This document shows positions 2,479-50,950 of a DNA stretch of 64,000 bases, in pieces (the first letter of the stretch is position 1; each line of letters opens with the position of its first letter). The stretch is from Dehalococcoidia bacterium (GTDB lineage Bacteria; Chloroflexota; Dehalococcoidia; Lucifugimonadales; Lucifugimonadaceae), in the NCBI GenBank assembly GCA_965221625.1, contig OZ244903.1, forward strand, positions 644,685 to 708,684. The letters run 5' to 3'. Made by a program: the position numbers and the translations under genes. The notes beneath the pieces were generated by a model. The model ran no database searches. It was not told where the DNA came from and saw nothing but the letters and a program-made list of their open reading frames with translations.

Positions 2479-4158
2479 CTATCTGAATGAGCCGGAACCG
2501 GAGGGGCCGCGATGTTGCGAAATGTGGTCTCGTTTGCCCTGTGTTCGCTTCGCCAAGAATCCTTCTCGCACCGGCCACGGCAAGGCACCGGCGCGATCCG
2601 CCCAAGCGTTGTACTCCGCCAACATCGATGCGACGCGTTGGGGTTCGCCGTCTGCGTGATCATGCAGTTCGGTTCGATCTTCCGGAATGTTGTAGAGCTC
2701 CCAAGGACCGTCCCATTCCGAAACCAGTTTCCAATCGCCGATGCGAATGCCGCGATTGCCTTCGTGCTCGACCGTTACCGGTTTCTCACGCAACCATTGC
2801 TTCCCTTCAATTGCCGGCACTATCGACTGGCCTTCAATGGGCGTTATCTCATTGCCGTTGAACTCCGACGGATAGGTGGCACCGATGGCGTCGTAGATCG
2901 TGGCAGAGATGTCGGTGATGTGCATCGGGACGTTGTCGACGATCGTCCCCTGCTTAATCGTGTTCGGCCAGTGGACGATGAAAGGAGTCGAGATTCCGCC
3001 TTCGTGGATCCAGCGTTTGAAGAGCCGGAATGGGGCGTTCGACACGTTCGCCCACGGCAATTCGACTGCTTGGAATGTCGTATCGGGACCCGGACGCAGT
3101 TCAGGTATGTCGCCGACGCGCACCGTTTGTCCATCCAGGGTCGGTCCAGTCTCCCACTGCGACGGGTTTGACCAATCAAGGTCTTCCTGAAACAATTCCG
3201 CGCATCCGCCATTATCGGAGAGGAACATGATTAGTGTGTTGTCGAACTGACCATGCTTCTTCAATGTTTCGATGACACGACCTACGCCGCGATCTACCTG
3301 CTCGATCATGGCGCAGTAGACAGCCATACGAATATCCTCGTACACCTTGTTCTCGACGTCTTCCCAAGGTGGTGCGTCTTCATCGCGTGGTGAGATGGGC
3401 CACTTTTCGTCGACGATGCCGATGCCTTTCTGTCGTTCGTGTCTTGATGCCCGTATCTCGTCCCATCCGCCCATGTAGTTGCCTTCGTACTTGACGATGT
3501 CGTCTTCCCACGCGTGCAAGGGCCAATGGGGTGCTGTAAAAGCGATGTACTGCACGAATGGCGAGCCGTCGTTCACCGCTTCGTCAATCTGCGTTACGGC
3601 ATAGTCGGCGATGGCATCGGTAAGGTGGAAGTCGTTCGATTCAACCTCAATTAGTTTGTCTTGCAGCATCAGACTCTTGGGGTTCCAGAACGAGTCGGCG
3701 GCTTCCAGAAGTCCGAAATATCGATCAAAACCACGCTGAGTCGGCAATGGGTGCCTGGCATCGCCGGGCGTCCATTCGTTGCGGCGTCTTCGGTCGTAAC
3801 CGCCACCTACGTGCCACTTGCCTGACATCAAAGTCCGGTACCCTGCGGTTTGCGCTACCTCCCCGAAAGTTACGGAACTGTCGTTCAGGAATCCTTGATA
3901 GGAAGGCACTCCGAGATCCGCGGTCATCTGGCCAACGCCGGCTTGGTGAGGATGGAGGCCGGTCAACAACGCGGCTCGCGACGGACAACATCGAGCACCG
4001 TTGTACATCTGGGTGAAGCGGATTCCGTTGTAACCGAGCGAATCGAGGTTCGGAGTGTTGATCTCGCCCCCGTAGCAGCCGATGTCTGAGAAACCTAGGT
4101 CGTCGACCATGATGACGATGACGTTTGGCCGATTGTCTTGTTGATGGTCAGTCGTCAT
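2479..4158 (-). CDS. Arylsulfatase (formylglycine-dependent sulfatase family)
   Basis: N-terminal NVIVIMVDDLGFSDIGCYGG and the C-x-P-x-R maturation motif (ARCCPSRAALLTG), plus GKWHVGG. Full-length at 559 aa. Confidence 0.9.
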   Translation of the reverse strand: MTTDHQQDNRPNVIVIMVDDLGFSDIGCYGGEINTPNLDSLGYNGIRFTQMYNGARCCPSRAALLTGLHPHQAGVGQMTADLGVPSYQGFLNDSSVTFGEVAQTAGYRTLMSGKWHVGGGYDRRRRNEWTPGDARHPLPTQRGFDRYFGLLEAADSFWNPKSLMLQDKLIEVESNDFHLTDAIADYAVTQIDEAVNDGSPFVQYIAFTAPHWPLHAWEDDIVKYEGNYMGGWDEIRASRHERQKGIGIVDEKWPISPRDEDAPPWEDVENKVYEDIRMAVYCAMIEQVDRGVGRVIETLKKHGQFDNTLIMFLSDNGGCAELFQEDLDWSNPSQWETGPTLDGQTVRVGDIPELRPGPDTTFQAVELPWANVSNAPFRLFKRWIHEGGISTPFIVHWPNTIKQGTIVDNVPMHITDISATIYDAIGATYPSEFNGNEITPIEGQSIVPAIEGKQWLREKPVTVEHEGNRGIRIGDWKLVSEWDGPWELYNIPEDRTELHDHADGEPQRVASMLAEYNAWADRAGALPWPVREGFLAKRTQGKRDHISQHRGPSGSGSFR

Positions 4159-4210: not shown

Positions 4211-5782
4211 TTACGTGTACGTGGCGTCGGTTTCCATAGGGTAGAGTGGCACGCGTCGGCGGTGATAGGTGAAGGTCGACATATCGGCGGTCGTTACGCC
4301 GGGAGTGTTGACAAGGATTACCTTGCCGGCGATCGGTTGGTAGGCAGGACGCGGAGATACGACGCCTTTGGCAACCACGATTCGATAGCGTTCTGGGATG
4401 ATTCCGATGTGGTACATCTGGGCGCGCACTGTGTTGCCGGTGCGGGCGGAAGTTAAGACGAGTGTTTGGCCGCCTACGGTGTCGAGGCGCACAGTCACAC
4501 CCGAGTTGTAGTACCTGAAACCACCGTGAGACGGGCCGAGCTCTTCGTACTGTCCGTCGGTGATGGCGCGGACTGTGCCGGTGACGGTGACCGGTTTGCC
4601 GTGGAGGTCGTCTGTCTTGCCACCTACGTCGAGCGTGACCGTCGATCCGACACCCGCATTGACGCATGCGTCGACCGATTCGGGATCGTATAGCGTTTGG
4701 ACAAAGCTTGAAATGCCTCGCTTGACCACTTCGGCTAAGATGTGCGTCGAATCGGCCGAGGAACCGCCGCCGATGTTGTCGCCAACGTCCATCAGGACAA
4801 TCGGCCCTTTGCGCACGGCACCGTGTGCGTCAGGCATCGAAAGAGCAGTGCCGTCGGTGGCGACGTGATCCGCTTCATTGAGATCGCGTGGTGCGACATA
4901 GTTGTCGACGGCGAAGTCGAGCGCGTCGGAAATCGAAGCGACCTCCACGTTCAACTCGGCGCGTCGCTCCCATGCCTTACTTGCCATCTCCTTTGCCACC
5001 GATTTGGCGAGGTCGATGTCCCCGTTGTCGGCGATGGCGACCCAGGACATGCCCATCTCCTCGACGTCGGCATACGGGTATCCCTCCGCGACGCTGGTAT
5101 CGAGAATACCGGGCGTTTCATTCGCTGCGACACAATCGGCGACGAACGACCGCATCGGGTCTTCGCCCGTAAACTGCTTCACGATGTTGACATACATCGG
5201 AGGCATCTCGATCCACTGCGCAGGATTAATCTCGCCCTTGACGGTGCGGTAAATCAATTCGGCGGTCTTGCGCCCGCGGACCTTCGGGTCGAGATGCGGG
5301 TTGGTACGCCAAACCACGCAGACGTCGGAATGTTTGACAACCGCTTTTGATACGTTGGCATGCATATCGAGCGTGACGCCGACAGGAATGTCCGGCCCCA
5401 CAATCTCTCGCACGGCGCGACAGAACTCGCCGTCCATGTCTGGATATTCTTCACTTACGGCGGCACCGTGATTTGATATGAGCACAGCGTCCCAAGGTCC
5501 ACCGTCACGCAGCATTCCGAACATCTCGTCGCTGAGGCGGTCATAGGCGTCTTTGGTGATGGTTCCAATCGGCCCGGTTACGGCGTACATGAGAGGCACC
5601 AGCTCGAAGTCGAGTTCTTGCGCGGCCTGAATGTATCCGGAGATGGTGTAGCGTGCGTTGACGTAATGATCGAAGATTTCGTCGCCGCGCCGGATGCCGG
5701 ACCTGACGAATTGCGCGTAGTCCGCGGGAACTGAGGAGAACGTGTTGGTTTCATGGGAGATGCCCAACATCGGGATGCGCAT
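4211..5782 (-). CDS. M81 family metallopeptidase (MlrC-like)
   Basis: MRIPMLGISHETNTFS is the typical MlrC/M81 N-terminus. The second ATG (5782) is preferred because GAAGGAG lies ~7 nt upstream. The ORF track start is 5797. Confidence 0.8.
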   Translation of the reverse strand: MRIPMLGISHETNTFSSVPADYAQFVRSGIRRGDEIFDHYVNARYTISGYIQAAQELDFELVPLMYAVTGPIGTITKDAYDRLSDEMFGMLRDGGPWDAVLISNHGAAVSEEYPDMDGEFCRAVREIVGPDIPVGVTLDMHANVSKAVVKHSDVCVVWRTNPHLDPKVRGRKTAELIYRTVKGEINPAQWIEMPPMYVNIVKQFTGEDPMRSFVADCVAANETPGILDTSVAEGYPYADVEEMGMSWVAIADNGDIDLAKSVAKEMASKAWERRAELNVEVASISDALDFAVDNYVAPRDLNEADHVATDGTALSMPDAHGAVRKGPIVLMDVGDNIGGGSSADSTHILAEVVKRGISSFVQTLYDPESVDACVNAGVGSTVTLDVGGKTDDLHGKPVTVTGTVRAITDGQYEELGPSHGGFRYYNSGVTVRLDTVGGQTLVLTSARTGNTVRAQMYHIGIIPERYRIVVAKGVVSPRPAYQPIAGKVILVNTPGVTTADMSTFTYHRRRVPLYPMETDATYT

Positions 5783-5872
5783 GGATGCTCCTTCCATCAG
5801 GATTGCTGTGCAGGGATCTACGGCATAGGGTACCGCATCGAACGTCTCTGATTGAGTTATCGTTGTGAGTAG

Positions 5873-6475
5873 ATGATGTCGTCGAACGCGCCCATTCTGC
5901 GATCCCTACTGGTTCGCATTGCCGTTCTTTGTGTCGCGATGGCGACTGTTTCTATCGCCGGTGAATTTGCGAAGGCGCAACCTTTAACCCTTACCTCGGG
6001 CCCGTACGTCGTAGTCGCCGACGAGAGTGTTGGCGATTATCGGCTCATCGTGCATCAATCGCCGGAACGCGTCATCGTCGGTACTCTGACGTACGCCGTG
6101 CAGGTTCACACAAAAGATGACGACGAACCGGTGGAAGATGCGATAGTCAAGGTCTACGGCACGCCGTCCGAGCACGGCAATCGACAGGTCGCTCCGGCAC
6201 TGAACTCACCTGTAGATCGAGAGTATTACGTCGGTCGTTTGGAGATTGAAGAGACAGGCGTATGGGCTATCGACGTCGTCGTGACGCATCCGGAACTTGG
6301 TGAGGAGACGCTGGTGTTGGCGACCGAAGTGTTTGATCGCGCACGCGGTGGATCGAACTTGGTTTGGGGGACGCTGCTTTGGCTATTGGTTTCGTTAGGT
6401 TTTCTCGGAGTCGTCTTCTACCTCATCCGTAAGTCGAGAGGCGTGCGTTTGAAGCTGGAACAATCCACCGACTAA
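5873..6475 (+). CDS. Hypothetical secreted/membrane-anchored protein (N-terminal signal, C-terminal TM helix)
   Basis: Hydrophobic N-terminus LLVRIAVLCVAMATVSIAG and C-terminal LVWGTLLWLLVSLGFLGVVFYLI followed by basic residues. No recognisable catalytic motif. Confidence 0.55.
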   Translation: MMSSNAPILRSLLVRIAVLCVAMATVSIAGEFAKAQPLTLTSGPYVVVADESVGDYRLIVHQSPERVIVGTLTYAVQVHTKDDDEPVEDAIVKVYGTPSEHGNRQVAPALNSPVDREYYVGRLEIEETGVWAIDVVVTHPELGEETLVLATEVFDRARGGSNLVWGTLLWLLVSLGFLGVVFYLIRKSRGVRLKLEQSTD

Positions 6476-6520: not shown

Positions 6521-7720
6521 TTGCGGATTTCGAATGTGAAGATTAGGCACGTCTTCGGCGCGCTAGAAACCGACGGTGAGTTCTGGGAAGAGCGATTGGT
6601 GATGCCGTTGGACGTCTACGAAGAGTTCAGGAACTCCAAGCAACGCACCAATGTTGTAACGGCGCAATCGTCCGACAACCGGATGGAGCACGACGCCTAC
6701 TTCATTCAGATCGAAACCGATGACGGTGCGATCGGCATCGGCGGACCAGTCGAGGAAACCGTCGCATACCTCGTTGCTACGCAGTTGGTGCCGCTCTTGC
6801 TGGATCGCGATCCATTAGCGACCGAGTTCCTATGGGACGTCATGCATCGGTCGCAGGTGCACGGACGGCACGGGCAGGCGATGATGGCAATCTCGGTAGT
6901 CGACTGCGCGCTCTGGGATTTGAAGGGCCGCGTCCTGAACGTCCCTGTCTACACCTTGCTAGGTGGTCCGACGCGAGAGCGAATCCCTGCGTACGCCTCA
7001 ATGTTGGGTTTCAACGTCACCGACATGGGTTTAGTGCGCGAACGGGCGCAGTGGGCGAAGTCTCTCGGATATACCGCGCAGAAATGGTTCTTTAGGCATG
7101 GCCCGATGTCTGGTCATATCGGACTGAAGGCAAACGTTGCCTTGGTTGAGACGGTTCGGGACGCGGTTGGCGATGATTACGACATCATGCTGGATTGCTG
7201 GCAATCGATGGACGTCAACTACGTCGTCAAGCTGGCGGGTGCAATTGAGGACTGTGCGCCCAGGTGGCTCGAAGAAGTGGCGATGCCGGATCGCATCGAT
7301 TCGTATCGAAAAATCCGCGAGAAGACTAACATTCCGATCTCAGGCGCTGAGCACGAATACACGCGATGGGGGTTCAAGCGGTTTATCGACGCGGAGGCAT
7401 TGGACATACTGCAACCTGACATTTACTGGGCGGGCGGCATCTCCGAGACATTGAAGATAATGGCCATCGCGACGGCTGCCGACCTAATCACGATTCCACA
7501 CGGTCACTCGTCGCCGGCTGGGATCCATGTTTCGGTCGCGCAATCACCGATCCACACGCCATATCAGGAATACCTGATTAAGTGGAACGCCGTGCACCAG
7601 CACTTCTTAGCCGATCCCGTTGTACCAGTCAGCGGCATGATCGAAATCCCGGACGGTCCGGGAATCGGGATGGATCTCGACGATTCGAAGATCGAGCGCG
7701 AGGAAGATCCCGTCTGGTAG
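6521..7720 (+). CDS. Enolase-superfamily dehydratase, L-rhamnonate dehydratase-like
   Basis: Collinear with E. coli RhmD as I recall it: VVDCALWDLKGRVLNVPVYTLLGG, DIMLDCWQSMDVNY, WLEE, SGAEHEYT, DILQPDIYWAGGI, IPHGHS. TTG start with GGGAGA upstream. Confidence 0.8.
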   Translation: MRISNVKIRHVFGALETDGEFWEERLVMPLDVYEEFRNSKQRTNVVTAQSSDNRMEHDAYFIQIETDDGAIGIGGPVEETVAYLVATQLVPLLLDRDPLATEFLWDVMHRSQVHGRHGQAMMAISVVDCALWDLKGRVLNVPVYTLLGGPTRERIPAYASMLGFNVTDMGLVRERAQWAKSLGYTAQKWFFRHGPMSGHIGLKANVALVETVRDAVGDDYDIMLDCWQSMDVNYVVKLAGAIEDCAPRWLEEVAMPDRIDSYRKIREKTNIPISGAEHEYTRWGFKRFIDAEALDILQPDIYWAGGISETLKIMAIATAADLITIPHGHSSPAGIHVSVAQSPIHTPYQEYLIKWNAVHQHFLADPVVPVSGMIEIPDGPGIGMDLDDSKIEREEDPVW

Positions 7721-9095: not shown

Positions 9096-9301
9096 GTAGT
9101 GAAACGTTGCTGTCGATGTGAGAAAACCCCGCATTGCGTATTCTAAAAGGTGCGTTACGAACGAACACCTACACGCTTCTGAGCGACGGTTCGCCCGTGT
9201 TCCCGGCGGATTCGCGGCGCCCAGTTCAACCGAAGCCGTTTCCTGTATCATGCGATAACATCGCATCGACCTCGGAACCTCGTCGATTGGAGAACACTCG
9301 G

Positions 9302-10945
9302 ATGTACTTGCTTGAAGTCTTGAATCCAGTTGCTCAGCAACGCGGGTTGATGAACTCGTTGAAAATCAATGAACGCCCGGCTTCGTTGGACAACAAGACT
9401 CTGGGTTTGATTTGGAGCGGGACGCACGGTGGCGACGTCGCTTTGAAACGGGCGGCGGAGATGATCCAAGATAGGTTCGAGAATGTCGCCGTCAACTTCT
9501 ACACAGGCGGCAACTACCCGACCCCGCCTCCGATCGTGAAGCAAGCGGGAGAGGAGTGTGACGTCGTCATCGGCGCCACTGCCGACTGAGGGACCTGTGC
9601 GTCGTGGATGGTCCACGACATGATCGAAATCGAGAAGATGGGGAAGCCGGCCATCCCGATAGTCTCCGGCCGCTTTGAAGAGGATGCCATCGCCAGTTCG
9701 CGCGCGTTTGGCATGCCAGATTTGCAGTTCGTTATCGTCCCGCGTATCTACCGCAATCTTGCGATCGATCTTTGCGTCTCGCAGACTGAGGACGCGATCG
9801 ACGACATTATTGACGTCCTAACCGTCGACCAGCAACACGGCCGACGGGAGCGCGACGAGACGGCGGAGGTTCAACGCTTCGAGGGCGACGACCGTTGGGA
9901 CGCTATCTTGAAGATGAATGAGCAGTGGCTGATGCGGGATTGGGGAGATTCGTTCGTCTTGCACCCTCCGACAGCAGAGGCGGTCGGAGAACTGCTTGCC
10001 GGAACGTCGCTCGATCCGCAGGAACTGGTGTGCGATATGCCTCCCGGGTTTGGTCTTGCTACGGTGGAACAGATCGCCATCAACGCGGCTATGGCAGGTG
10101 CGAAATCAGAACACATGCCAGTGATCATCGCAGGTGTGAAAGCACTTTCGCAGATGGGTCGAGACGGCGGTAAGTCGCTGTTGATGTCGACGAGTCCTCA
10201 GGCACCGCTGCTGATTGTCAACGGACCAATCGCCAATGAGATCGGGATCAACGCGAGGTCGGCAATCGGACCGGGTCGTGACAACCAGGTGAACATAACG
10301 ATCGGACGCGCCTTCGCCCTTTGTTTGCGCAACATCGGGTATTGGTATCCCGGGCAGATGGATATGGACACGATCGGAACCACCCGCAAGTTCGTCCAAT
10401 GCATCGCCGAGAACGAGGACGCCAGTCCGTGGCAACCGTTCCACGTAGACCAGGGCTTCCGCGCCAGCGAGAGCACGGTCAGCGTCTTCATCACCAATGG
10501 CGAGTTGGACGTCCAGGATCAAGGCAATACGCAGGCTGAAGATCTGTTGAAGACGTTGGCCTACGGTTCTATATTCGGCACTCGCGGTTTGGGCATGCAC
10601 GGCGGTGCCGAGCGTCTCATCCTGATGCCACCAGACGTCGCCCAGCCGGTGGGTCAACAAGGTTTCTCAAAGGATGACGCAAAGGGGTTCATTCACATCA
10701 ACGCCAACCACAGTTTGGGCAAGATGATCCAATACACGCCGCTCAAAGGCGAGGCGCGAATCAGCCCGATGTGGCGATGGTTGGAAGACTTGACTGAGAA
10801 AGAACGCCTCGAGATTGAGGTCCCTTTGGTTGACGGGCCGGACAAGTGGAAGATCGTGGTTGTCGGTGCCGACCGAGCCAAGACGGCAGTCATGCCGATA
10901 GGCGACGGTGTCCAAACCGTAGGAATCGACCAGTACCGGGCATAA
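9302..10945 (+). CDS. Candidate selenoprotein: UGSC/GrdB-like redox module (D-U-G-T-C, UGA at 9587-9589) fused to a ~370-aa domain of unknown function
   Basis: ORFs 9134..9589 and 9608..10945 are in the same frame, separated only by TGA plus 18 open nt. Read-through gives CDVVIGATAD-U-GTCASWMVHDMIEIEKMGKPAIPIVSG. There is a hairpin 12 nt downstream. Start chosen at ATG 9302 (GGAGA ~10 nt upstream). Confidence 0.6.
9601..9619 (+). promoter_or_regulatory. SECIS-like stem-loop downstream of in-frame UGA
   Basis: GTCGTGG (9601-9607) pairs perfectly with CCACGAC (9613-9619). The 5-nt apical loop is AUGGU. The stem begins 12 nt after the UGA. Confidence 0.5.
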
Positions 10946-10977
10946 CTTCGGCGAGACGGAGTCGCGGTGATGCGCGG

Positions 10978-13158
10978 CTAATCCGTCTTGGCGTGCAACA
11001 ACGCAGACAGCATCTCGCGCAATGAACGCGGTGATGCGACGGCTACTTGCGCCGCCGAACTGCCTGAGCCGATCTTGACGGTGTGAACTCCCGGCGGGAC
11101 GTGCAGAAAAAGGTCTTCATCGGTACGGTCGTCACCAGTCGCGAGTTCGAAATCGAATGGACCGAAGCGGTTAACGACTAGATCGTACGCACGCGCTTTG
11201 GTGAGGCCTTGCTGCCTAACCTCGACGACCTTTGCACCGTGAAGGACTTGCACTGGTTCGGTACGGAACGTCGTCTCAAGCAGCGATACCAGTTCCAGTG
11301 CCTGCCAGTTTCCTAGATCTTCTTCCACCTGGCGGTAGTGCCACGCCAAGGAAGTCTCCTTTTCCTCAACGCGAGAACCCGGGATGCGTTCGACGAAGTC
11401 CGTTAGGAGAGACATGACCTCTGGTTTCCAACCGGTGTCCAAATCCCCGAGGGATCGCCAGTCTCCGCCCGCAGACTTCATCCAGACACCGTGCTCCGCG
11501 ATCAAATCTATCGGGACGTCTGCGAACCACTCGCCCAGTGTTTGGTAGTCGCGTCCGCTGTTGATGAAAGTTTGCACGCCTTCGCAGCGTCCGAATCCAG
11601 CGAGGATGTCGAGGATCTCTGTTGTCGGCACCGCGTCCTCGTAGCGGTCGCAGAACTCGCGGAGCGAACCGTCGTAATCGAGCATGATTAGCGACTTTTC
11701 CGCTGAAGTGAACTCAGTAGAGAGCGATTCGGCGAGAACCGATGAGGTTAGCATCGGCGGCACGGCGACATCGACTGCATCGGCGTCTTCGAGTGCTTCC
11801 ATGAATCCTAATACCCACCGATGGACGTCGTTTTGGATTACGCGACTATGCATCGGCATCATCCGCTCGTTGCGCTCGCCTAAGCTCATCTCAAGGGCAC
11901 GTTCTAACTGGTTGACCGTGCCCTCGACGTCCCACGGATTGACTCTTAGGGCTTCACCCAACTCGCTCACAGCACCGGCGAACTCGCTGATGACCAACGT
12001 GCCACCGCCATCTTCCCGGCACATCACGTACTCCTTGGCAACGAGGTTTAATCCGTCACGCACCGGGGATACGAAACAGACGTCAGCCAGGCGGTACATC
12101 GCGCCCAACTCGGCCGGCGTAACGGTTTGATAGAGATAGCGGATTGGGCTCGTCAGTGGCGAACCGTAGATTCCGTTGATTTCGCTGATGCGACGCTCAA
12201 CGTCCGACCTCAAATCTTGGTAGGTCTCAATCCCCGGGCGAGTCGGCACAGCCAATTGGATGAACAGAACTCGTTCTTGCCAACGCGGCGATCGCTCCAG
12301 CAGCTTCTCGAATGCTTGCAGCTTGAGCAACAGTCCTTTGGTGTAGTCCAAGCGATCGACACCGAGTATGACTTGACGATCACCGACGTGCCTTTTGAGT
12401 TGTGTCAGATATCGATCCGCTTCGTCCGAATGGGCAGAGTCGCGCATGGCACGGGTGTCGATTCCCAGGGGATGTGCTTGCACGCGTACTGTGTGATTCC
12501 GCAACCGCACTTTTCCAGATTGCGACTCGATACCCAAGATCCGGCGAACGGAGCGCAAGCAGTTGTCGGCGTAGTCATATGTGTGGACGCCGATGAGGTC
12601 TGCGCCGAGAAGACCGCGCAGTATCTCGACCCGTTGCGGCAGGATGCGGAAAGTTTCGTCGGCAGGAAACGGGATGTGCAAGAAAAACCCGATACGAACG
12701 TCGAGTCTTCGTTGCCGCAACATCCTCGGCAAGAGCATCAGGTGATAGTCGTGGACCCAGACAGCGTCGCCCGGTTGCGCCACTTCCGCGACTACGTCGG
12801 CAAATCGTTCGTTGACCCTCGCATAGGTTTCGAATTGCTCTGGGTCGAAGGTCGCTAGTTCCGAGAAGTAGTGGAACAACGGCCACAAGGCGTCGTTTGA
12901 GTAGCCATCGTAATAGTCCCGATAGTCATCGGGGTCGATTTCTACCGGCACCAAGTTGCGATTAGCCAACTGACTGAGGATCGCATCGCTGGGTTCAGTG
13001 CCCGGATATCCGACCCAAAGTCCGCCGGACTGTTCGTGCAATGGCCGAAGCCCGGCCACGAGTCCGCCCACGCTGTCGACCAACGTCTGATGCCCGTCCG
13101 ACGGGTTTTCCGAAATCGTGACCGGTAGGCGATTCGAGACTAAGATAGTGCGCCGCAT
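10978..13158 (-). CDS. otsA: Bifunctional trehalose-6-phosphate synthase (GT20) / trehalose-6-phosphate phosphatase (HAD) fusion
   Basis: The N-terminal ~460 aa is OtsA-like (ILVSNRLP, VWVHDYHLMLLP, GFFLHIPFP, LGVDRLDYTKG, VSPVRDGLNLVAKEY). The C-terminal part has the HAD trehalose-phosphatase motif IMLDYDGSL and GDDRTDED. Confidence 0.88.
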   Translation of the reverse strand: MRRTILVSNRLPVTISENPSDGHQTLVDSVGGLVAGLRPLHEQSGGLWVGYPGTEPSDAILSQLANRNLVPVEIDPDDYRDYYDGYSNDALWPLFHYFSELATFDPEQFETYARVNERFADVVAEVAQPGDAVWVHDYHLMLLPRMLRQRRLDVRIGFFLHIPFPADETFRILPQRVEILRGLLGADLIGVHTYDYADNCLRSVRRILGIESQSGKVRLRNHTVRVQAHPLGIDTRAMRDSAHSDEADRYLTQLKRHVGDRQVILGVDRLDYTKGLLLKLQAFEKLLERSPRWQERVLFIQLAVPTRPGIETYQDLRSDVERRISEINGIYGSPLTSPIRYLYQTVTPAELGAMYRLADVCFVSPVRDGLNLVAKEYVMCREDGGGTLVISEFAGAVSELGEALRVNPWDVEGTVNQLERALEMSLGERNERMMPMHSRVIQNDVHRWVLGFMEALEDADAVDVAVPPMLTSSVLAESLSTEFTSAEKSLIMLDYDGSLREFCDRYEDAVPTTEILDILAGFGRCEGVQTFINSGRDYQTLGEWFADVPIDLIAEHGVWMKSAGGDWRSLGDLDTGWKPEVMSLLTDFVERIPGSRVEEKETSLAWHYRQVEEDLGNWQALELVSLLETTFRTEPVQVLHGAKVVEVRQQGLTKARAYDLVVNRFGPFDFELATGDDRTDEDLFLHVPPGVHTVKIGSGSSAAQVAVASPRSLREMLSALLHAKTD

Positions 13159-18603: not shown

Positions 18604-21600
18604 ATGCAGGCACGCGAGCGAGCCCCTGATTCTTCCCGCTTAATGCAAGACGTACCTAAGACGGTAGAAGACGCAGACGAATCTCAGTTCGCAAACCGAG
18701 TCGATGCGACTGACGTCGGCGTCGAATCGTTGTCTCAGGCGACCAAAACCCAAGCGTCACCGGGAATCAACGTCGATTTCGTCAAGGTCGCCTTAGGTTT
18801 AATCCTCCTACTGGCACTCATGCTTCGCGTTTACGGAACGGATTGGGACCAAGGCGGACTGTTCCATCCGGATGAACGCGATTTCCTTGGGCGGGCCGAA
18901 CGCTTAGATTTCAGTCAACTTTCTGAACCAGGATTATTCTCGCGAGATTCGCGATTGAATCCGGCTTGGTTCAACTATGGATCTCTGCCTCTCTACACGT
19001 TGGCGTTCGTCAAAGCAATTGCGGCTCCCTTCACCGAGCGTGATTGGAATGTGTTTGACCTCAGGTTTCCCGGACGTAATCTCACTGCGATTTCGGATAC
19101 GGCTACGGTTTTCTTCGTCTATCTGCTCGCAACAACCCTTTGGGCTGATCGCCGCGCGGGGTTAATAGCCGCGTTGCTAGCTGCGCTCGCGGTCATCCAC
19201 ATCCAAAACGCGCACTACACGGCAGTCGACGCGCCGATGACGATGTTCATCACCGCAACGATCTACTTTTCGACGCGTTTGGTGCAAGAACCGCGCACCA
19301 GATATGCGGTGTTGACAGGTGCCATGTTCGGGCTGGCCTTGGCGACCAAGTTCTCGGCGGCACCGGTCGGAATCGCCATCGCTAGTGCTTACCTGTTGCT
19401 CTTGCTTAAACCTGGAACGACCGACAATCGACTGTTTGCCGGAACCGTCACCAAATACGCGCTGATTTCCGCTGCGACGGTCATCGCGATACTGCTGGTC
19501 GCGCAACCGTTCATGTTCATCGACCGGGAGACCTATGTGGGGCACATTCTCACGCAGTCTGAGATGGTGCGCAGGATTGCGGATTTCCCATTCACCCGCC
19601 AATACATCGACACGACGCCATACCTTTACCAGTTCCGACAACTCTCGACCTGGGGTCTGGGCATTGCCCTCGGAGTCTCGGTGTGGATCGCAACAATCTG
19701 GGCTATCGGACGAACCATCGTGTGCCGTCAGCTCTTTTTGCTGGTACCGTTGTCATTCCTCGTCGTTTATCTGCTTCTGAATGGGCAGTTTGACGTGAAG
19801 TTCCTCCGGTACATGCTGCCAGTTGTGCCCGTACTGTTGGCGTTCACCGGTGGCATGGTTTGGTGGGCATACCGTTACTTTCTACCGAACGTCCATCGCG
19901 TTGTCAGATTTGGCGCATACGCCATCGGTGCATTGGCATTCCTGCTCACGGTGCACTATTCGCTCGCATACCTCAACGTGTTCAGGGGCGATCATCCGGC
20001 GCAAGAGATATCTCAGTGGTTGCGTGACAATGCCGAAACTGGTGACGTCATCATCAAGGAGCACTGGGAGGAAGGCATACCCAATGTTCCCGGTTTGCAG
20101 ATGCACGGGAACGAACTCCCGATGTACGAATCGGACGGCATAGCGAAGTTCGACCGCGTTGCAGATCTGATGGAGCGAGGCGACTATCTTGTCCTCTACA
20201 GCAACCGACTGGCCGCGACAATACCGCGACTGCCGGAGCGTTATCCCATCTCCACGCGCTTCTACGAGTTGCTGTTCAACGGCGGTTTGGGTTACGAGGT
20301 CGTACACACGTCGGTGCGAGTGCCTCAGTTCCTCGGGATCACTTACTGGGATGACCCGTATGCGCGCGTCGACTTTGCGTTGCCGGAGGGATATCGGAAA
20401 CCGGAGGCATCCCTCTACAGTTGGGATTGGTACGGTTGGGCGGACGAAAGCTTCACTGTTTACGAGCATCCGCATGCGATTCTTTTCAAGAACGTCGAGG
20501 AACTCGATCGGGCGGAGATATTCGAGGTGTTGGACATCGACAACTCGATCGCGGACAGTTTGCGCGTTATCGACGAAATCGGTCTGATTTACAGCGAAGC
20601 TGATGCTCAAATTCAGCGAAACGGCGATAACTGGAATGAGATCTATTTTCTGAGAAACCTTCCTAACGGTGCTGCCTGGTTGGTTTGGTTGATCGCGGTG
20701 CAAGTCATCGCACTCTTGGCATTGCCACTGACCTACGTAGTGTTCCGACCGTTCCCTGACCGCGGCTATCTCTTCTCCAAACCGATCGGCTTGTTGCTCG
20801 TCGCCACTTTAGCTTGGTTGATGGCAAGCACTGGCATTCTAGGATTCAGTGCATTCAGCGTTGCCCTATCGATCTTTCTACTCGCCCTCGTCTCGGGAAC
20901 CATCTTTTGGAAACTGCGGGAAGAGATGCTCTACTTCCTCAAGGGTCATTTGAAGACGATTGGAATTGCAGAGGCCATATTCATAGTCGCTTTCTTCGGG
21001 TTCTTCGCGGTCAGGTTGGCGAATCCCGACCTTTGGCATGCTTGGCGCGGCGGAGAGAAGCCGATGGACTTTGCCTACCTGAACGCCATCACTAGATCCA
21101 CGATCATGCCGCCTTACGATCCGTGGTTCGCCGGTGGCTATCTCAACTACTACTACTACGGTCAGTTCATCGTATCCACGCTCATCCGCATCACCGGCAT
21201 CATCCCAACTGTCGCCTACAACCTCGCGATTCCGCTTATCTTTGCCCTCACCGCCGGGTCGGTATACACCGTGGCATACAACATAGTCGCGATGGCGCAA
21301 AGGGTCAACGGATTCACTCCGCGGACGACTTCACGAGGGTTCGTTTCACTCTCGCCCAAACCCATCGTGTTCGGAATAGTCGCAGCCATACTCACGGTGA
21401 TTGCCGGCAATATCGATGGATTGATTCAGGTCGTCTCGGCATTTTACGACGCTTTCATCACAGGTCAAGACATCCGGGATTTCGACTACTGGCGCAGTAC
21501 TCGCGTGTTTGACGGCTCATTGGGAGGCAACGAGATTACGGAGTTCCCGTCCTTTACGTTCCTTTACGCCGATCTCCACGCCCACATGATCGCGTTGCCA

Positions 21601-23028
21601 TTTGCCATGCTTGCGCTTGGACTATCGATTTCCGCGTTTATGCGGGCGGGAATGGAGCGATTGCTACGGGTCGAGGCGGTAGCGTCACTGGGACTGCTCG
21701 GGATCGCGATTGGGTCGCTTCGCCTCATCAACTCATGGGACTTTCCGACCCAACTGTTAATCGCATTCGCCCTCATCTTCACTGGCGAGGTACTGTTCGG
21801 ACATCGAGGCCCTAAGTGGGGATTCGTCCATGCGCTCGTTAAGTCCGGTTTTGTGGCGATGATCGGTTACGTCGTGTACCTGCCGTTCCACCAAAACTTC
21901 GAACTGTTCAACAGTTCGGTCGAGTTGAGCAAGTTCCAGACCTCCTTGTGGCGATATCTCTTGATTCACTCAATATTCGTATTCGCCATTGCATCTTGGA
22001 TCGTCATGGAGTGGCACCGAGGGACTCTCCGATTGGGTGCCACGATTGACATCGCTACTGAGCAGTACGGGTATCCGAAATGGTCGATTCCCGTGGCGTT
22101 TGCTTCGTTGGGTTTGGCGATGGCGGCATTCATGTACGCGTATCCGCACTACGTCACTGTAGCGGTGACGCTTGCAGCCGCGGGAATCGTTGGACTAACC
22201 GCATTGCTGGCGTACCTGCGACGGCATCGAGAGCAGCGATACATATTGATCGCGGCGACCCTGGTCATGATGTCGCTGTTCATCGCTGCGGGGGTGGACG
22301 TGATCACGGTGTCGAACGACATTGGGCGTCAGAACACGATCTTCAAGTTCTACATCCAAGCGTGGTGGCTCCTTGCCATCGCCGCGTCGTTCGCCATCTG
22401 GAAGCTGTGGGAAGCGCGGGCATTCGACATTCGAAACCTCACGCGTCTGAGAGCCGTCTGGTTGGCCACCTTCGTTGTTCTTGGGGTGGGAGTGCTCGTC
22501 TATCCCGTGATGTCAACCGAGTTCAGAATGGATGAACGCTTCAATGTCATCGGCCCCGGCGTCGACGGTGAGGCGTACATGGATCATGCGGTTTACCGCC
22601 ACCAAGGAATAACCCTCGAATTGGCTACCGATCGTGCTGGCATCAATTGGCTGCGCAACAACGTCGAAGGCTCGCCGGTGATCGTCGAAGGTCAATGGGA
22701 TCTATACACCTGGGCGAACCGTATCGCGATCTATACCGGGCTTCCAACAATCGTCGGATGGGACTGGCACCAGACACAGCAACGACATGACTATCGTTGG
22801 GCAGTTCAACAACGTCGCAACGATGTCAACGAGTTTTACACCACCGGCGATCCGCTACGAGCGAAGCGATTCCTTGATGAGCACCGCGTCAAATACGTGT
22901 ATGTCGGACAGCTGGAGCGGAACCGCTACCCGGCGAGCGGAATTGAGAAGTTCGAGACATCGTCGATACTCAATCTCCAACCCGTATTCGAGGATGGCGT
23001 GGTTACGATTTACGAATACCGAGGCTGA
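18604..23028 (+). CDS. Giant polytopic membrane protein: GT-C (ArnT/PMT-like) glycosyltransferase region plus DUF2298 / 'Chlor_Arch_YYY' region
   Basis: 1474 aa and very hydrophobic. The first loop is LRVYGTDWDQGGLFHPDERDF. GGYLNYYYYGQF has YYYY at 21148-21159. The soluble C-terminal tail ends at 23028. Confidence 0.75.
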   Translation: MQARERAPDSSRLMQDVPKTVEDADESQFANRVDATDVGVESLSQATKTQASPGINVDFVKVALGLILLLALMLRVYGTDWDQGGLFHPDERDFLGRAERLDFSQLSEPGLFSRDSRLNPAWFNYGSLPLYTLAFVKAIAAPFTERDWNVFDLRFPGRNLTAISDTATVFFVYLLATTLWADRRAGLIAALLAALAVIHIQNAHYTAVDAPMTMFITATIYFSTRLVQEPRTRYAVLTGAMFGLALATKFSAAPVGIAIASAYLLLLLKPGTTDNRLFAGTVTKYALISAATVIAILLVAQPFMFIDRETYVGHILTQSEMVRRIADFPFTRQYIDTTPYLYQFRQLSTWGLGIALGVSVWIATIWAIGRTIVCRQLFLLVPLSFLVVYLLLNGQFDVKFLRYMLPVVPVLLAFTGGMVWWAYRYFLPNVHRVVRFGAYAIGALAFLLTVHYSLAYLNVFRGDHPAQEISQWLRDNAETGDVIIKEHWEEGIPNVPGLQMHGNELPMYESDGIAKFDRVADLMERGDYLVLYSNRLAATIPRLPERYPISTRFYELLFNGGLGYEVVHTSVRVPQFLGITYWDDPYARVDFALPEGYRKPEASLYSWDWYGWADESFTVYEHPHAILFKNVEELDRAEIFEVLDIDNSIADSLRVIDEIGLIYSEADAQIQRNGDNWNEIYFLRNLPNGAAWLVWLIAVQVIALLALPLTYVVFRPFPDRGYLFSKPIGLLLVATLAWLMASTGILGFSAFSVALSIFLLALVSGTIFWKLREEMLYFLKGHLKTIGIAEAIFIVAFFGFFAVRLANPDLWHAWRGGEKPMDFAYLNAITRSTIMPPYDPWFAGGYLNYYYYGQFIVSTLIRITGIIPTVAYNLAIPLIFALTAGSVYTVAYNIVAMAQRVNGFTPRTTSRGFVSLSPKPIVFGIVAAILTVIAGNIDGLIQVVSAFYDAFITGQDIRDFDYWRSTRVFDGSLGGNEITEFPSFTFLYADLHAHMIALPFAMLALGLSISAFMRAGMERLLRVEAVASLGLLGIAIGSLRLINSWDFPTQLLIAFALIFTGEVLFGHRGPKWGFVHALVKSGFVAMIGYVVYLPFHQNFELFNSSVELSKFQTSLWRYLLIHSIFVFAIASWIVMEWHRGTLRLGATIDIATEQYGYPKWSIPVAFASLGLAMAAFMYAYPHYVTVAVTLAAAGIVGLTALLAYLRRHREQRYILIAATLVMMSLFIAAGVDVITVSNDIGRQNTIFKFYIQAWWLLAIAASFAIWKLWEARAFDIRNLTRLRAVWLATFVVLGVGVLVYPVMSTEFRMDERFNVIGPGVDGEAYMDHAVYRHQGITLELATDRAGINWLRNNVEGSPVIVEGQWDLYTWANRIAIYTGLPTIVGWDWHQTQQRHDYRWAVQQRRNDVNEFYTTGDPLRAKRFLDEHRVKYVYVGQLERNRYPASGIEKFETSSILNLQPVFEDGVVTIYEYRG

Positions 23029-38483: not shown

Positions 38484-39851
38484 ATGCTGCGCATCCGACA
38501 ATTGCTTCCGGTCGGGGGAAGACGCTCGCTGAGTTACCGCGAGGTTGTCAAGGTGAGGCGCGCCAATCGGATGCGGCGCGGACGCTTGAAGCGATCGTTC
38601 GTAAGGTCGATGCTGTGGGTGCCCGGCATTTTCGTAGCAGCACTTGGCATCGTCGCCATCGCTCTGCCGGTTGGTGATCGTCGCGTCTTCACTCACGTCG
38701 AACTCGCAACCGCCGGAAGCCGGTACGATCTGACTTCGTTTGAGCTGCAGAACCTGCCGGATAAGTGGTTGCACAAGATCATTACGTCACTTCCGTGGAA
38801 TGCAATTGACGAGAAAGAGCATCGGCAGTTACTCGACCGATATCTGGCACTCGCTCCCGAGTTGCGGGTTGCACGATCCGAGCTTGAGAATGCACTCGCG
38901 GTGCGTGATCCGATCCTTATTGCCAAGGCCCAGTTGAGGCTTGACTCGCTCATCGCAGAGCGTAACGAATTCCGCGATCCAGTAGAGGAGTTCCTTGAGT
39001 CGGCTATCTCTGCCCAGATCGTCGAGTTGAATCTCCACAAGTTCGGAGATTTCATTTGGCCGCCGGTCGATTTTCGGATAGATGATGCCCCGCATCTGCT
39101 GGTTACCTCGCTTAGGAATGTAATCGAGCGAAAAAACTCGATTCTCCTGTCGCCGGTCATGGACGAACCGACAAAACTCGCTATTGAAAATCAGATTGTC
39201 GAGAGTGCGGATCTATCGGCCGCGGTTTTTCCCATCGGAGGTCTCGCGTCTTTCCCGAATTTGGTAACTCACAGCTACGATCTAACTTCGCTTCTTGAGA
39301 TCGCAGCCCACGAGTGGATCCATGCATATCTGCTATTTCAACCTCTCGGTCGTGCTTACTGGGCGAACGGCGACATGACTTCGCTCAACGAGACGCTCGC
39401 AACCATTGCTGGCGATGAAATCGGTCGGATGGCATACAACTACATCACCGGCGAAGCGATCGAGACGTCGGTAAAGCCGCGTTTCAAAGACGAAGCGGAG
39501 GAGATCGAAATCGATCCTGATGCGTTCGACTTCAATCGTTTCATGCGCGAAACCCGGGTGCAAACCGATGAACTCCTCGAACGCGGCGAGATTTTGGAGG
39601 CTGAGGAGTACATGGAGCGACGGCAAGTGGAACTGATCGACCATGGATACAACATCCGCAAACTGAATCAGGCTTACTTTGCGTTCTATGGCACATATGC
39701 CACGGGTCCGGCATCGACAAGCCCTTTGGCCCGGCAGCTGTGGGAGTTGCGGGTCCAATCGGATAACGCGGGACATTTCATCAAGACGCTACAGACGATC
39801 TCGAACTACGACCAATTCCTTGAGCTGTTAGAGCAGCGCGAAATAGATTGA
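38484..39851 (+). CDS. Membrane-anchored hypothetical protein with gluzincin-like HExxH...NE signature
   Basis: N-terminal TM helix MLWVPGIFVAALGIVAIALPV. AAHEWIHAYL followed 23 residues later by NETLA. The start codon is uncertain (several in-frame Met in the first 45 codons). Confidence 0.5.
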   Translation: MLRIRQLLPVGGRRSLSYREVVKVRRANRMRRGRLKRSFVRSMLWVPGIFVAALGIVAIALPVGDRRVFTHVELATAGSRYDLTSFELQNLPDKWLHKIITSLPWNAIDEKEHRQLLDRYLALAPELRVARSELENALAVRDPILIAKAQLRLDSLIAERNEFRDPVEEFLESAISAQIVELNLHKFGDFIWPPVDFRIDDAPHLLVTSLRNVIERKNSILLSPVMDEPTKLAIENQIVESADLSAAVFPIGGLASFPNLVTHSYDLTSLLEIAAHEWIHAYLLFQPLGRAYWANGDMTSLNETLATIAGDEIGRMAYNYITGEAIETSVKPRFKDEAEEIEIDPDAFDFNRFMRETRVQTDELLERGEILEAEEYMERRQVELIDHGYNIRKLNQAYFAFYGTYATGPASTSPLARQLWELRVQSDNAGHFIKTLQTISNYDQFLELLEQREID

Positions 39852-45505: not shown

Positions 45506-45608
45506 TGACGCTCCTGCCTTGGAGTGCTGATTGCGAAACGCGATACAAAGTCTAGCACCAAACGCATCAATCGCATGGTGCAAGTTTGAGGGATTGAACA
45601 AACGAATA

Positions 45609-49570: not shown

Positions 49571-49758
49571 CTAGGCTCATCCTCCCCCAATCGAGACGTT
49601 CACAACAGCTGACGAGTTGACGGCGATCACCTCAGCGCGTCGTAGCTGTGCGGCAAGGCCGGAACTACCACCTTGAATCTTGTAGACTACCCTCACCGGA
49701 CGCGTCATCACGCAATGTCGCCTGACGGTTGCTAGATTCCCAAGTCCAACGCCTATCA

Positions 49759-50922: not shown

Positions 50923-50950
50923 ACGCCGTGTGGAAGCGGTATCGCATGCC

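What the first reader, a model, noticed from the sequence alone, without database searches (positions are those of the whole stretch)
9302..10945. In-frame UGA joins two ORFs into a candidate selenoprotein with a D-U-G-T-C redox motif
Seen in the sequence:
- ORFs 9134..9589 and 9608..10945 are in the same reading frame.
- Only TGA 9587-9589 plus 18 nt without further stops separates them.
- Reading through gives ...EECDVVIGATAD-[UGA]-GTCASWMVHDMIEIEKMGKPAIPIVSGRFEEDAIASSRAFGMPDLQFVIVP...
- The UGA therefore sits two residues before a Cys (U-x-x-C), inside what reads as one continuous small alpha/beta domain.

A U-x-x-C pair is the classic selenylsulfide redox arrangement.

From memory, the context resembles two things. 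One is the 'UGSC-containing' selenoprotein family reported from marine metagenomes and named 'UGSC family (seleno)protein' in RefSeq. The other is the region around Sec in glycine/betaine reductase protein B. I cannot verify either here.

Automated callers would split this into a 95-151-aa ORF and a 445-aa ORF and miss the protein.
Basis: partly seen in the sequence, partly recalled or inferred. Interest (0 to 1): 0.85.

Follow-up and report, generated by a model that had tools for sequence, protein, structure and literature searches.

The report
Mis-split UGSC-family selenoprotein gene
The two adjacent ORFs are one 547-codon gene whose in-frame UGA encodes selenocysteine, in a known but functionally uncharacterised selenoprotein family (UGSC) that gene callers split in two in every genome examined.

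Summary
Window 9302-10945 (+) is a single gene. TGA 9587-9589 is codon 96 of a 547-residue protein with the motif D-U-G-T-C.

Evidence for selenocysteine recoding:
- The Pfam UGSC model (PF24696) matches end-to-end across the UGA.
- The TGA is at the same codon in 81/81 close loci, with a coding signature on both sides, and in 71/80 distant family members. Seven distant members have Cys there.
- An 8-bp hairpin starts 11 nt after the UGA (9601-9619). Its synonymous sites are frozen in the close clade, and it shows compensatory changes across the family.
- Two distant UGA-form relatives lie next to tRNA-Sec plus SelB or SelA.

Other findings:
- The UGSC domain is a remote relative of the Sec region of glycine/proline-reductase protein B (GrdB/PrdB).
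- It is fused to a ~350-residue domain with no Pfam, NCBIfam or PDB relative.
- In other organisms that domain is a separate gene adjacent to a stand-alone UGSC gene.

The family was published in 2007-2008, and a "UGSC/Unknown_1" fusion was published in 2008. I therefore rate this a new member of a known kind, of moderate interest. The function and the Sec machinery of this genome remain untested.

The parts
9289..9292 (+). Shine-Dalgarno-like GGAG, 9 nt upstream of the start codon
   Evidence: Read directly from the sequence.
9302..10945 (+). Complete selenoprotein gene: 547 codons plus TAA. ATG 9302 is the conserved start (M[HY]LLEVLNP).
   Evidence: Translation. Start and upstream stops are conserved in 81 loci. 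Public gene calls split it into 95 + 445 aa.
9317..9823 (+). UGSC domain (residues 6-174), an alpha/beta domain that spans the UGA
   Evidence: PF24696 scores 99.9 bits over profile positions 2-171 of 172. NF041046 scores 90-94 bits. In the AF2 model of homologue P0125 the Sec-column Cys sits between a beta-strand and the N-terminus of a helix. The only Foldseek PDB matches, weak and about one domain long (150-195 columns), are flavodoxin-like/Rossmann-like.
9587..9589 (+). In-frame UGA, read as selenocysteine 96
   Evidence: TGA in 81/81 close loci and 71/80 distant loci, with a Cys codon in 7. Full-length Cys homologues align across it.
9596..9598 (+). TGT, Cys99: the resolving cysteine of the U-x-x-C pair
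   Evidence: Invariant in the 81 close loci. Conserved in at least 90% of 40 UGSC domains.
9601..9619 (+). SECIS-type hairpin GUCGUGGA-UGG-UCCACGAC: 8 bp, G-containing apical loop, starting 11 nt after the UGA
   Evidence: Present in the centroid fold at -12.6 kcal/mol. Synonymous codon entropy is 0.039 here against 1.2-1.3 in the flanks, and 5/5 degenerate codons are frozen. Across 75 distinct family sequences, 7/7 pairs show double-sided changes and 83% of cells are paired against 72.7% in shuffles (0/500). The covariation score is 0.277 against at most 0.13 in slid registers.
9884..10942 (+). C-terminal domain of about 350 residues (roughly 195-547) with unknown function. Family motifs: W-x-D-G-x-P-x-x-P-P-T, A-I-N-A-x-M-A-G-[CA], V-N-G-P, I-G-R-A, A-E-N-E-x-x-S-P-W.
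   Evidence: 3794 representative clusters have E <= 1e-3. No Pfam, NCBIfam or PDB relative was found. The AF2 model has pLDDT 93.4. The domain occurs alone, duplicated, or next to a stand-alone UGSC gene.
10100..10102 (+). GCG (Ala267) at the family's mostly-Cys 'MAGC' column
   Evidence: Alignment A2. Across the family the column is Cys in 51 and Ala in 28 of 79 loci.
10406..10417 (+). A-E-N-E motif, containing family-invariant Glu370 and near-invariant Glu372
   Evidence: Invariant or near-invariant columns in A2, A3 and A4.

Best explanation
Window 9302-10945 encodes one 547-residue selenoprotein.

Shown here:
- UGA 9587-9589 lies inside a single conserved UGSC domain.
- That codon is kept as TGA, or replaced by a Cys codon, across the family.
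- It is followed at a fixed distance by a hairpin that is under selection as RNA.

Inferred from the established bacterial Sec pathway:
- SelB carrying Sec-tRNA(Sec) binds the hairpin at 9601-9619 and inserts selenocysteine at codon 96.

Inferred from motif geometry and remote homology to GrdB/PrdB:
- Sec96 sits at the N-terminus of a helix, three residues before Cys99.
- Together they form a selenol/thiol pair that cycles to a selenenylsulfide.
- Sec acts as the attacking or reducing nucleophile, and Cys99 resolves the intermediate.
- A thioredoxin- or glutaredoxin-type system re-reduces the pair.

Inferred from fusion/fission and confident inter-domain packing:
- The redox module works on a substrate or reaction centre held by the fused ~350-residue C-terminal domain.
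- That domain is an uncharacterised enzyme-like domain with invariant Asp, Arg and Glu residues.

The substrate is unknown.
For: Single gene and Sec recoding:
- PF24696 matches residues 6-174 across the UGA.
- 81/81 close loci keep the TGA. The upstream 95 codons have codon-position entropies of 0.37/0.23/1.17.
- Of 80 distant loci, 71 have TGA and 7 have Cys. Full-length Cys forms align across the junction.
- The Met at 9608 is not conserved outside the close clade (for example TSWLVHDM, TSWSVHDS), so re-initiation there cannot be general.

SECIS:
- The hairpin starts 11 nt after the UGA.
- Its synonymous sites are frozen.
- It shows covariation, with shuffle and slid-register controls.
- A subclade with a different sequence still has a hairpin at the same offset.

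Sec machinery beside relatives:
- L133 carries tRNA-Sec and SelB (351 bits, cut-off 242).
- L160 carries SelA (560 bits, cut-off 268) and tRNA-Sec.

Redox chemistry:
- U-x-x-C lies at a strand-to-helix junction in the AF2 model.
- There are GrdB/GrdF/GrdH/PrdB HMM hits, and HHalign puts U on U and C on C.
- Published PrdB-like reads show the same local pattern.

Coupling of the two domains:
- They are fused in 67 and adjacent as separate co-directional genes in 13 of 80 loci.
- Genes encoding only the C-domain lie next to stand-alone UGSC Sec genes.
- The full-length model has pTM 0.93.
- Occasional neighbours or fusions include TrxR-like, Trx, Grx and FtrB.
Against: - No selA, selB, selD or tRNA-Sec lies in the 64-kb window, so Sec decoding in this genome is inferred, not shown.
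- There is no protein-level evidence of selenium incorporation.
- The hairpin arms encode conserved S-W and H-D residues, so part of their conservation is protein constraint. The frozen third positions and the compensatory changes argue for an RNA constraint on top of that.
- The GrdB/PrdB relationship is weak: probability 66%, the window's own sequence does not hit those models at E <= 0.05, and no GrdE/PrdA-type pyruvoyl partner was seen.
- The window clade lacks the family's 'MAGC' cysteine (Ala267). A simple Sec-to-Cys relay onto that residue therefore cannot be the general mechanism.
- There is no conserved operon context and no structural relative for the C-domain, so nothing is known about the substrate.
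Confidence: 0.85

Rival explanations
1. The TGA is a true stop. Either the locus holds two genes (a 95-aa and a 445-aa product, the second starting at ATG 9608) that may assemble as a split protein, or it is a pseudogene.
For: This is how every public gene call treats it. An ATG lies 6 codons after the TGA in the close clade. No Sec machinery is present in the window.
Against: - The TGA is kept at exactly this codon in 81/81 and 71/80 loci. Purifying selection acts on both sides and on the 6 intervening codons. A pseudogene would not show this.
- The stop falls in the middle of one folded domain, between a strand and its helix.
- The downstream Met is absent in most distant UGA forms, and there is no Shine-Dalgarno sequence before 9608.
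- Cys-containing homologues are single polypeptides.
Confidence: 0.03
2. The UGA is read through, but not as selenocysteine. Near-cognate tRNA would insert Cys, Trp or Arg, or the lineage would have reassigned UGA.
For: Sec-decoding genes were not found in the window. Cys works at this position in 7 of 80 relatives.
Against: - UGA ends many ordinary genes in this window, so the codon is not reassigned.
- A structured element at SECIS distance is under RNA-level selection. Leaky read-through would not need it.
- UGA-form relatives lie beside tRNA-Sec, SelA and SelB.
- The family is a curated selenoprotein family (NF041046; PMC2398784, PMC13188914).
Confidence: 0.04
3. Same gene and same Sec recoding, but a different role for the UGSC domain. 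It would be a thioredoxin-like electron carrier that only re-reduces a catalytic centre of the C-terminal enzyme domain. Sec would not be the nucleophile that attacks the substrate.
For: - The literature treats the UGSC family as a putative thiol oxidoreductase (PMC2398784).
- Most family members have a conserved Cys in the C-domain ('MAGC', 51/79) that could be the redox partner.
- There are occasional links to TrxR, Trx, Grx and FtrB.
Against: - The window clade and 28/79 family members have Ala at that Cys.
- The nearest detectable relatives are GrdB/PrdB, in which (from the literature, not tested here) Sec is proposed to attack the substrate directly.
- Foldseek found flavodoxin-like domains rather than thioredoxin-fold domains in its top 50 hits.
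Confidence: 0.3

Closest known systems
UGSC-containing selenoprotein family (Zhang & Gladyshev 2007/2008; Pfam PF24696; NCBIfam NF041046 'UGSC family (seleno)protein')
   Same: - It has the same domain, with a full-length Pfam match across the UGA.
- Sec is at the same column in a U-G-x-C motif, and rare Cys forms exist.
- Sec dominates over Cys: 71 to 7 here, and 255 to 21 in GOS.
- The hairpin sits at the same offset in stand-alone UGSC genes.
   Different: - The motif is U-G-T-C rather than U-G-S-C.
- The protein is 547 aa with a ~350-aa C-terminal extension, whereas the stand-alone form modelled by NF041046 is ~175 aa.
- It scores 90-94 bits, below that model's 125-bit cut-off. Two stand-alone forms score 138 and 123.
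'UGSC/Unknown_1 fusion' reported from the Global Ocean Sampling metagenome (PMC2398784, Fig. S1A)
   Same: A UGSC selenoprotein domain is fused to a conserved domain of unknown function that also exists on its own in some aquatic organisms. The C-domain here likewise occurs alone.
   Different: I could not verify that the two are identical. The figure is held only as an image, and the UGSC sequences lie beyond the stored part of the dataset.
Selenoprotein B of glycine/sarcosine/betaine reductase and D-proline reductase (GrdB, GrdF, GrdH, PrdB; TIGR01917, TIGR01918, TIGR04483)
   Same: - The local architecture around Sec matches: hydrophobic strand, U-x-x-C, helix, then E-x-x-G-(I/K)-P-(T/A)-(V/I) strand.
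- 14 of 40 UGSC domains hit GrdB.
- HHalign aligns U to U and C to C.
- A selenol/thiol pair that ends as a selenenylsulfide is the mechanism proposed in the literature for those enzymes.
   Different: - The similarity covers only about 68 columns and lies far below the family cut-offs.
- The window sequence itself gives no hit.
- Neither the rest of GrdB/PrdB nor a GrdE/PrdA pyruvoyl subunit is present.
- The host clade is Dehalococcoidia/SAR202 and Entotheonella MAGs, not an amino-acid-fermenting clostridium.

Membership tests
Pfam PF24696 (UGSC family) | HMM score above the gathering threshold, with near-complete model coverage | tested here: met
   99.9 bits against a gathering score of 25. 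Residues 6-174 match profile positions 2-171 of 172. All 40 diverse domains match.
Pfam PF24696 (UGSC family) | Sec or Cys at the U column, followed by G-x-C | tested here: met
   The window has D-U-G-T-C. The U/C and G columns are invariant and the second Cys is at least 90% conserved in A6.
NCBIfam NF041046 (UGSC family (seleno)protein, equivalog) | Whole-protein score at or above the curated cut-off of 125 bits | tested here: not met
   90.0 bits for the full protein and 93.6-93.7 bits for the N-domain alone. Other fused forms score 92.6 and 110.3. Stand-alone forms score 138.3 and 123.1.
Bacterial selenoprotein gene (SelB/SECIS-dependent UGA recoding) | In-frame UGA conserved among orthologues, with coding constraint on both sides | tested here: met
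   TGA in 81/81 loci. Codon-position entropies are 0.37/0.23/1.17 upstream and 0.18/0.10/1.21 downstream.
Bacterial selenoprotein gene (SelB/SECIS-dependent UGA recoding) | Homologues with Cys aligned to the UGA | tested here: met
   7 of 80 distant loci carry TGC/TGT. P0125, P0127, P0133 and others carry ..DCGSC...
Bacterial selenoprotein gene (SelB/SECIS-dependent UGA recoding) | Stem-loop shortly downstream of the UGA with a G-containing apical loop, conserved as a structure | tested here: met
   The hairpin is at 9601-9619. Its synonymous sites are frozen. Covariation was tested against controls. No dedicated bacterial SECIS predictor was available, and Rfam gave no hit.
Bacterial selenoprotein gene (SelB/SECIS-dependent UGA recoding) | selA, selB, selD and tRNA-Sec in the same genome | not testable with these tools
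   None lie in the 64-kb window, and the rest of the genome could not be read. In two distant UGA-form relatives the gene lies beside tRNA-Sec with SelB (L133) or SelA (L160).
Bacterial selenoprotein gene (SelB/SECIS-dependent UGA recoding) | Selenium physically present in the protein | not testable with these tools
   This needs 75Se labelling or mass spectrometry.
GrdB/PrdB selenoprotein B family (TIGR01917, TIGR01918, TIGR04483) | HMM score above the curated cut-off over the full ~430-residue protein | tested here: not met
   The window sequence gives no hit at E <= 0.05. Relatives hit only profile positions ~335-401, at 17-20 bits against cut-offs of 602-800.
GrdB/PrdB selenoprotein B family (TIGR01917, TIGR01918, TIGR04483) | Sec and resolving Cys at homologous columns | tested here: met
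   HHalign of A6 against A7 aligns DCGSC with ICPVC (E 5.5e-5, probability 66%, 68 columns).
GrdB/PrdB selenoprotein B family (TIGR01917, TIGR01918, TIGR04483) | Partner pyruvoyl proprotein (GrdE/PrdA) and GrdA/Trx-system genes in the same locus | tested here: not met
   The window neighbours are fabF, an enolase-superfamily gene and otsA/B. The gene calls of the related loci examined list no GrdE/PrdA-type gene. The recurrent neighbour clusters that were identified do not include one, though not every cluster was annotated.
Thioredoxin-fold thiol oxidoreductases (fold suggested for UGSC in PMC2398784) | Thioredoxin fold | tested here: inconclusive
   The model of Cys homologue P0125 is confident (pLDDT 92.7). 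Its top 50 Foldseek PDB hits are flavodoxin-like/Rossmann-like domains (WrbA, flavorubredoxin, cindoxin, B12-binding) at E 6e-4 to 2e-2, and none is a thioredoxin-fold protein. The matches are weak, and I could not inspect the topology directly.

The most novel reading that the evidence does not exclude
The UGSC domain and the ~350-residue partner domain may together be a widespread, unrecognised two-module selenoenzyme. It has thousands of sequence clusters in marine, soil and sponge-associated bacteria.
- Its Sec module would descend from the same ancestor as glycine/proline-reductase protein B.
- Its partner domain would be a fold with no solved relative that binds the substrate.
- It would catalyse a Sec-dependent reductive cleavage of an as-yet-unknown small molecule, in organisms such as SAR202 that are not amino-acid fermenters.
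Probability: 0.3. Interest if true: 0.7.

Novelty: new member of a known kind. Interest (0 to 1): 0.35.

Why it matters
**Annotation.** The top 120 database homologues, and the gene calls of every UGA-form locus examined, are truncated or split at the UGA. Most carry no name or "hypothetical protein". The real product is a 547-aa selenoprotein, so selenoproteome and selenium-use estimates for Dehalococcoidia/SAR202 and Entotheonella-type genomes are too low.

[quoted passage not shown] This analysis adds three testable handles:
- a remote link to the Sec site of GrdB/PrdB;
- an obligate-looking partnership, by fusion or adjacency, with a large uncharacterised domain that has no solved structural relative;
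- a flavodoxin-like rather than thioredoxin-like fold prediction.

None of this overturns current understanding. It sharpens an open question rather than revealing a new kind of system.

Tried and rejected
- I used the 445-aa window segment and the Cys homologue P0125 instead.
- **Rfam and tRNA scans of the window** found nothing.
- **Sec machinery in the window.** A Pfam scan of 19 of the larger ORFs found none. Not every ORF was scanned.
- **Possible paralogue.** The 455-aa ORF at 38484-39848 with no Pfam hit is not one.
- **Conserved operon.** The best neighbour occurs in 21 of 81 close loci, and nothing exceeds 6 of 86 distant loci.
- **C-domain identity.** Tested by PDB sequence search with a single sequence and with profiles, by Foldseek with two models, and by Pfam/NCBIfam scans of 104 members. 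Nothing was significant. The cyanuric-acid-hydrolase 'Toblerone' hits (E 0.03, probability 0.25, TM 0.18) were rejected as evidence.
- **UGSC-domain profile against PDB sequences** found nothing.
- **Matching 'Unknown_1' to this C-domain** through the paper's supplement failed, because the figure is an image and the file is truncated.
- **Promoter and terminator scan.** The number of sites was close to the shuffle expectation and none lies in a position that would delimit the gene, so the scan was not used.
- **Model coordinates** are not exposed, so the distance from Sec96 to the C-domain residues could not be measured.
Full report
**Observation**

- ORFs 9134..9589 and 9608..10945 share a frame. 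Only TGA 9587-9589 and 18 stop-free bases separate them.
- Read-through gives ...GATAD-U-GTCASWMVHDM...
- The biological start is ATG 9302, with GGAG 9 nt upstream. In 81 related loci conservation begins at M[HY]LLEVLNP, and stops often lie just upstream.
- The product is 547 residues, with Sec at 96 and Cys at 99.
- A TGA joining two open segments is not rare in this G+C-rich window: about 60 such pairs have at least 60 codons on each side. The evidence therefore has to come from homology across the junction.

**One domain spans the stop**

With U replaced by C, Pfam PF24696 (UGSC family) matches residues 6-174 over essentially its whole model, at 99.9 bits against a gathering score of 25. 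NCBIfam NF041046 'UGSC family (seleno)protein' matches residues 31-174 at 90 bits, below its equivalog cut-off of 125. Public gene calls on the source contig list a 95-aa ORF and a 445-aa ORF, both with UGSC hits. The 120 best database homologues are nearly all 438-446 aa and begin just after the UGA.

**Conservation of the UGA**
- In 80 genomes the homologous codon is TGA in every case. Most are Dehalococcoidia/SAR202 or other Chloroflexota MAGs, and two are Candidatus Entotheonella.
- The 95 upstream codons have position entropies of 0.37/0.23/1.17, a coding signature under purifying selection. The six codons between the UGA and the next ATG are conserved as protein.
- An exhaustive representative search shows a large family: 3794 clusters at E <= 1e-3. 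It includes proteins of ~550-580 aa that carry Cys at this column (..DCGSCTSW..), proteins of ~340-360 aa with only the C-terminal domain, and tandem duplicates of that domain.
- Among 80 diverse metagenomic loci the column is TGA in 71, a Cys codon in 7 and Asp in 1.
- The Met at 9608 is not conserved outside the close clade. A second start there cannot explain the family.

**SECIS**
- An 8-bp hairpin, GUCGUGGA-UGG-UCCACGAC, starts 11 nt after the UGA at 9601-9619. It is the only element kept in the centroid fold.
- In the close clade the five degenerate codons inside it are frozen. Their synonymous codon entropy is 0.039, against 1.21 upstream (2 of 69 codons frozen) and 1.28 downstream (0 of 41).
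- Across 75 distinct family sequences aligned from the UGA, all 7 tested pairs show double-sided changes.
- 83% of cells pair, against 72.7 +/- 0.9% in shuffles (0/500).
- The covariation score is 0.277, against 0.142 in shuffles (0/500) and at most 0.13 in slid registers.
- Stand-alone UGSC genes have the hairpin at the same offset.
- A UGSCTK[FY]L subclade replaces it with a longer stem of different sequence at the same offset.
- The arms also encode conserved S-W and H-D residues, so protein constraint contributes. The frozen third positions and the compensatory changes that accompany amino-acid changes (for example L100) show an RNA constraint as well.

**Sec machinery**
- The window has no tRNA, no Rfam hit and no selA, selB or selD among the ORFs scanned. 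The rest of the genome could not be read.
- An ARAGORN scan of all fetched DNA (1.67 Mb) found tRNA-Sec in two loci, each 2-3 kb from a UGA-form family member.
- In L133 it is followed by SelB (TIGR00475, 351 bits, cut-off 242). In L160 it is preceded by SelA (TIGR00474, 560 bits, cut-off 268).
- This shows that UGA-form members of the family live in Sec-decoding organisms. For the window's own genome it remains an inference.
- Chloroflexi are reported to contain selenoproteins (PMC1794560).

**What the protein is**

The AF2 model of the closest full-length Cys form, P0125, is very confident (pLDDT 92.7, pTM 0.93). It places the Sec-column Cys between a beta-strand and the N-terminus of a helix. 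Foldseek against the PDB returns only weak hits about one domain long (150-195 columns), to flavodoxin-like/Rossmann-like domains. There is no thioredoxin-fold hit and no match of the length of the C-terminal domain.

The window's own 445-aa segment also models confidently (pLDDT 93.4) and has no significant PDB match. Its best hit has E 0.03, probability 0.25 and TM 0.18. Profile searches of PDB sequences, Pfam and NCBIfam find nothing recurrent for this domain. Its family-invariant residues include Asp216, Arg336 and Glu370, as expected for an enzyme. The family's common 'MAGC' cysteine is Ala267 in the window clade.

**The two domains work together**
- They are fused in 67 of 80 diverse loci. 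They are separate, adjacent and co-directional in 13.
- Genes encoding only the C-domain lie beside stand-alone UGSC genes that are themselves interrupted by UGA (L088, L089, L091).
- No other neighbour is conserved.
- Low-frequency neighbours include TrxR-like, thioredoxin, glutaredoxin, CoA-transferase III and Opp/Dpp-type transporter genes.
- One relative carries an extra FtrB domain.

**Link to GrdB/PrdB**
- Of 40 diverse UGSC domains, 14 hit TIGR01917 (glycine reductase selenoprotein B; best E 2.3e-5). Others hit the GrdF, GrdH, PrdB and TIGR01918 models. No unrelated family recurs.
- The match in one stand-alone protein covers GrdB profile positions 335-395 of 431, which I believe from memory is the Sec region.
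- Published PrdB/GrdB-like selenoprotein reads show the same pattern: strand, U-x-x-C, helix, E-x-x-G-I-x-T-V (PMC2398784 supplement).
- HHalign of the two profiles aligns U with U and C with C over 68 columns (E 5.5e-5, probability 66%).
- This supports 'works like the Sec site of protein B' but not membership. The scores are far below the cut-offs, the window sequence itself does not hit, and no GrdE/PrdA partner is present.

**Comparison with what is known**

The UGSC-containing selenoprotein family was described from marine metagenomes. It is listed as a major but functionally unknown family, with 255 Sec and 21 Cys sequences in GOS. A 'UGSC/Unknown_1' fusion was reported in 2008 (PMC2398784; PMC1976440; PMC13188914). 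I could not confirm that Unknown_1 is this C-domain.

**Verdict**

The finding is a correctly recognised, mis-annotated member of a known selenoprotein family. It is worth fixing in annotation and moderately interesting for the functional leads, but it is not a new kind of system.

Noticed in passing
L133:5001-11494: A selenium-related gene cluster in a distant relative. In order: a UGA-form UGSC+C-domain gene, a rhodanese-related (seleno)protein-like gene, a second UGSC paralogue with a lipoprotein-type signal peptide (..ASQCD-U-GHCTSW..), a DoxX-like membrane protein, tRNA-Sec (9310-9407) and SelB (9593-11494).
   Followed up: partly
L160:3159-6734: A UGA-form family member is followed directly by SelA (5018-6469) and tRNA-Sec (6641-6734).
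   Followed up: partly
window 10100-10102: The window clade has Ala (GCG) where most of the family has the Cys of the 'AINAVMAGC' motif (Cys 51, Ala 28 of 79 loci). All 7 Cys-for-Sec forms keep that Cys.
   Followed up: partly
L121, L136, L138, L147, L151, L153, L156, L171 (UGA +14 to +58): A UGSCTK[FY]L subclade lacks the short hairpin but has a longer stem (..AAAGUUCCUCG...CGAGGACUUU..) starting at the same distance from the UGA. The family therefore has at least two SECIS shapes.
   Followed up: partly
alignment A4 (one of 104 members; not identified individually): One relative of the C-terminal domain also carries a ferredoxin:thioredoxin reductase catalytic-chain domain (PF02943, E 1e-16; NF041072 'FtrB family double-selenoprotein', E 1.4e-12).
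   Followed up: no
P0195, P0226, P0251: Proteins of 713-741 aa made of two tandem copies of the uncharacterised C-terminal domain, without a UGSC domain.
   Followed up: no
L086:1-6030 and L087: A distant UGA-form gene sits directly after an Opp/Dpp-type ABC transporter (binding protein and two permeases) on the same strand and is followed by a glutaredoxin gene.
   Followed up: no
L091:2147-6041 and L092:2283-9384: CoA-transferase family III genes lie immediately downstream of both a split C-domain/UGSC pair and a fused Cys form. Thioredoxin-reductase-like genes are nearby, and thioredoxin, SDR and CMD genes are also present in L092.
   Followed up: no
window 38484-39848 (+): A 455-aa ORF with no Pfam family at E <= 1e-5. 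It is not a paralogue of the gene studied.
   Followed up: partly
window 6521-7720, 44345-45601, 49729-50919, 50930-52111, 52151-53293, 55974-57176: Six enolase-superfamily (mandelate racemase/muconate lactonising enzyme) paralogues lie within 64 kb, three of them in tandem. A sulfatase (2482-4158) and an M81/MlrC peptidase (4214-5797) are also present.
   Followed up: no
window 18604-23025 (+): A 1474-aa membrane protein that combines PMT_2/PMT glycosyltransferase-like and DUF2298 regions.
   Followed up: no
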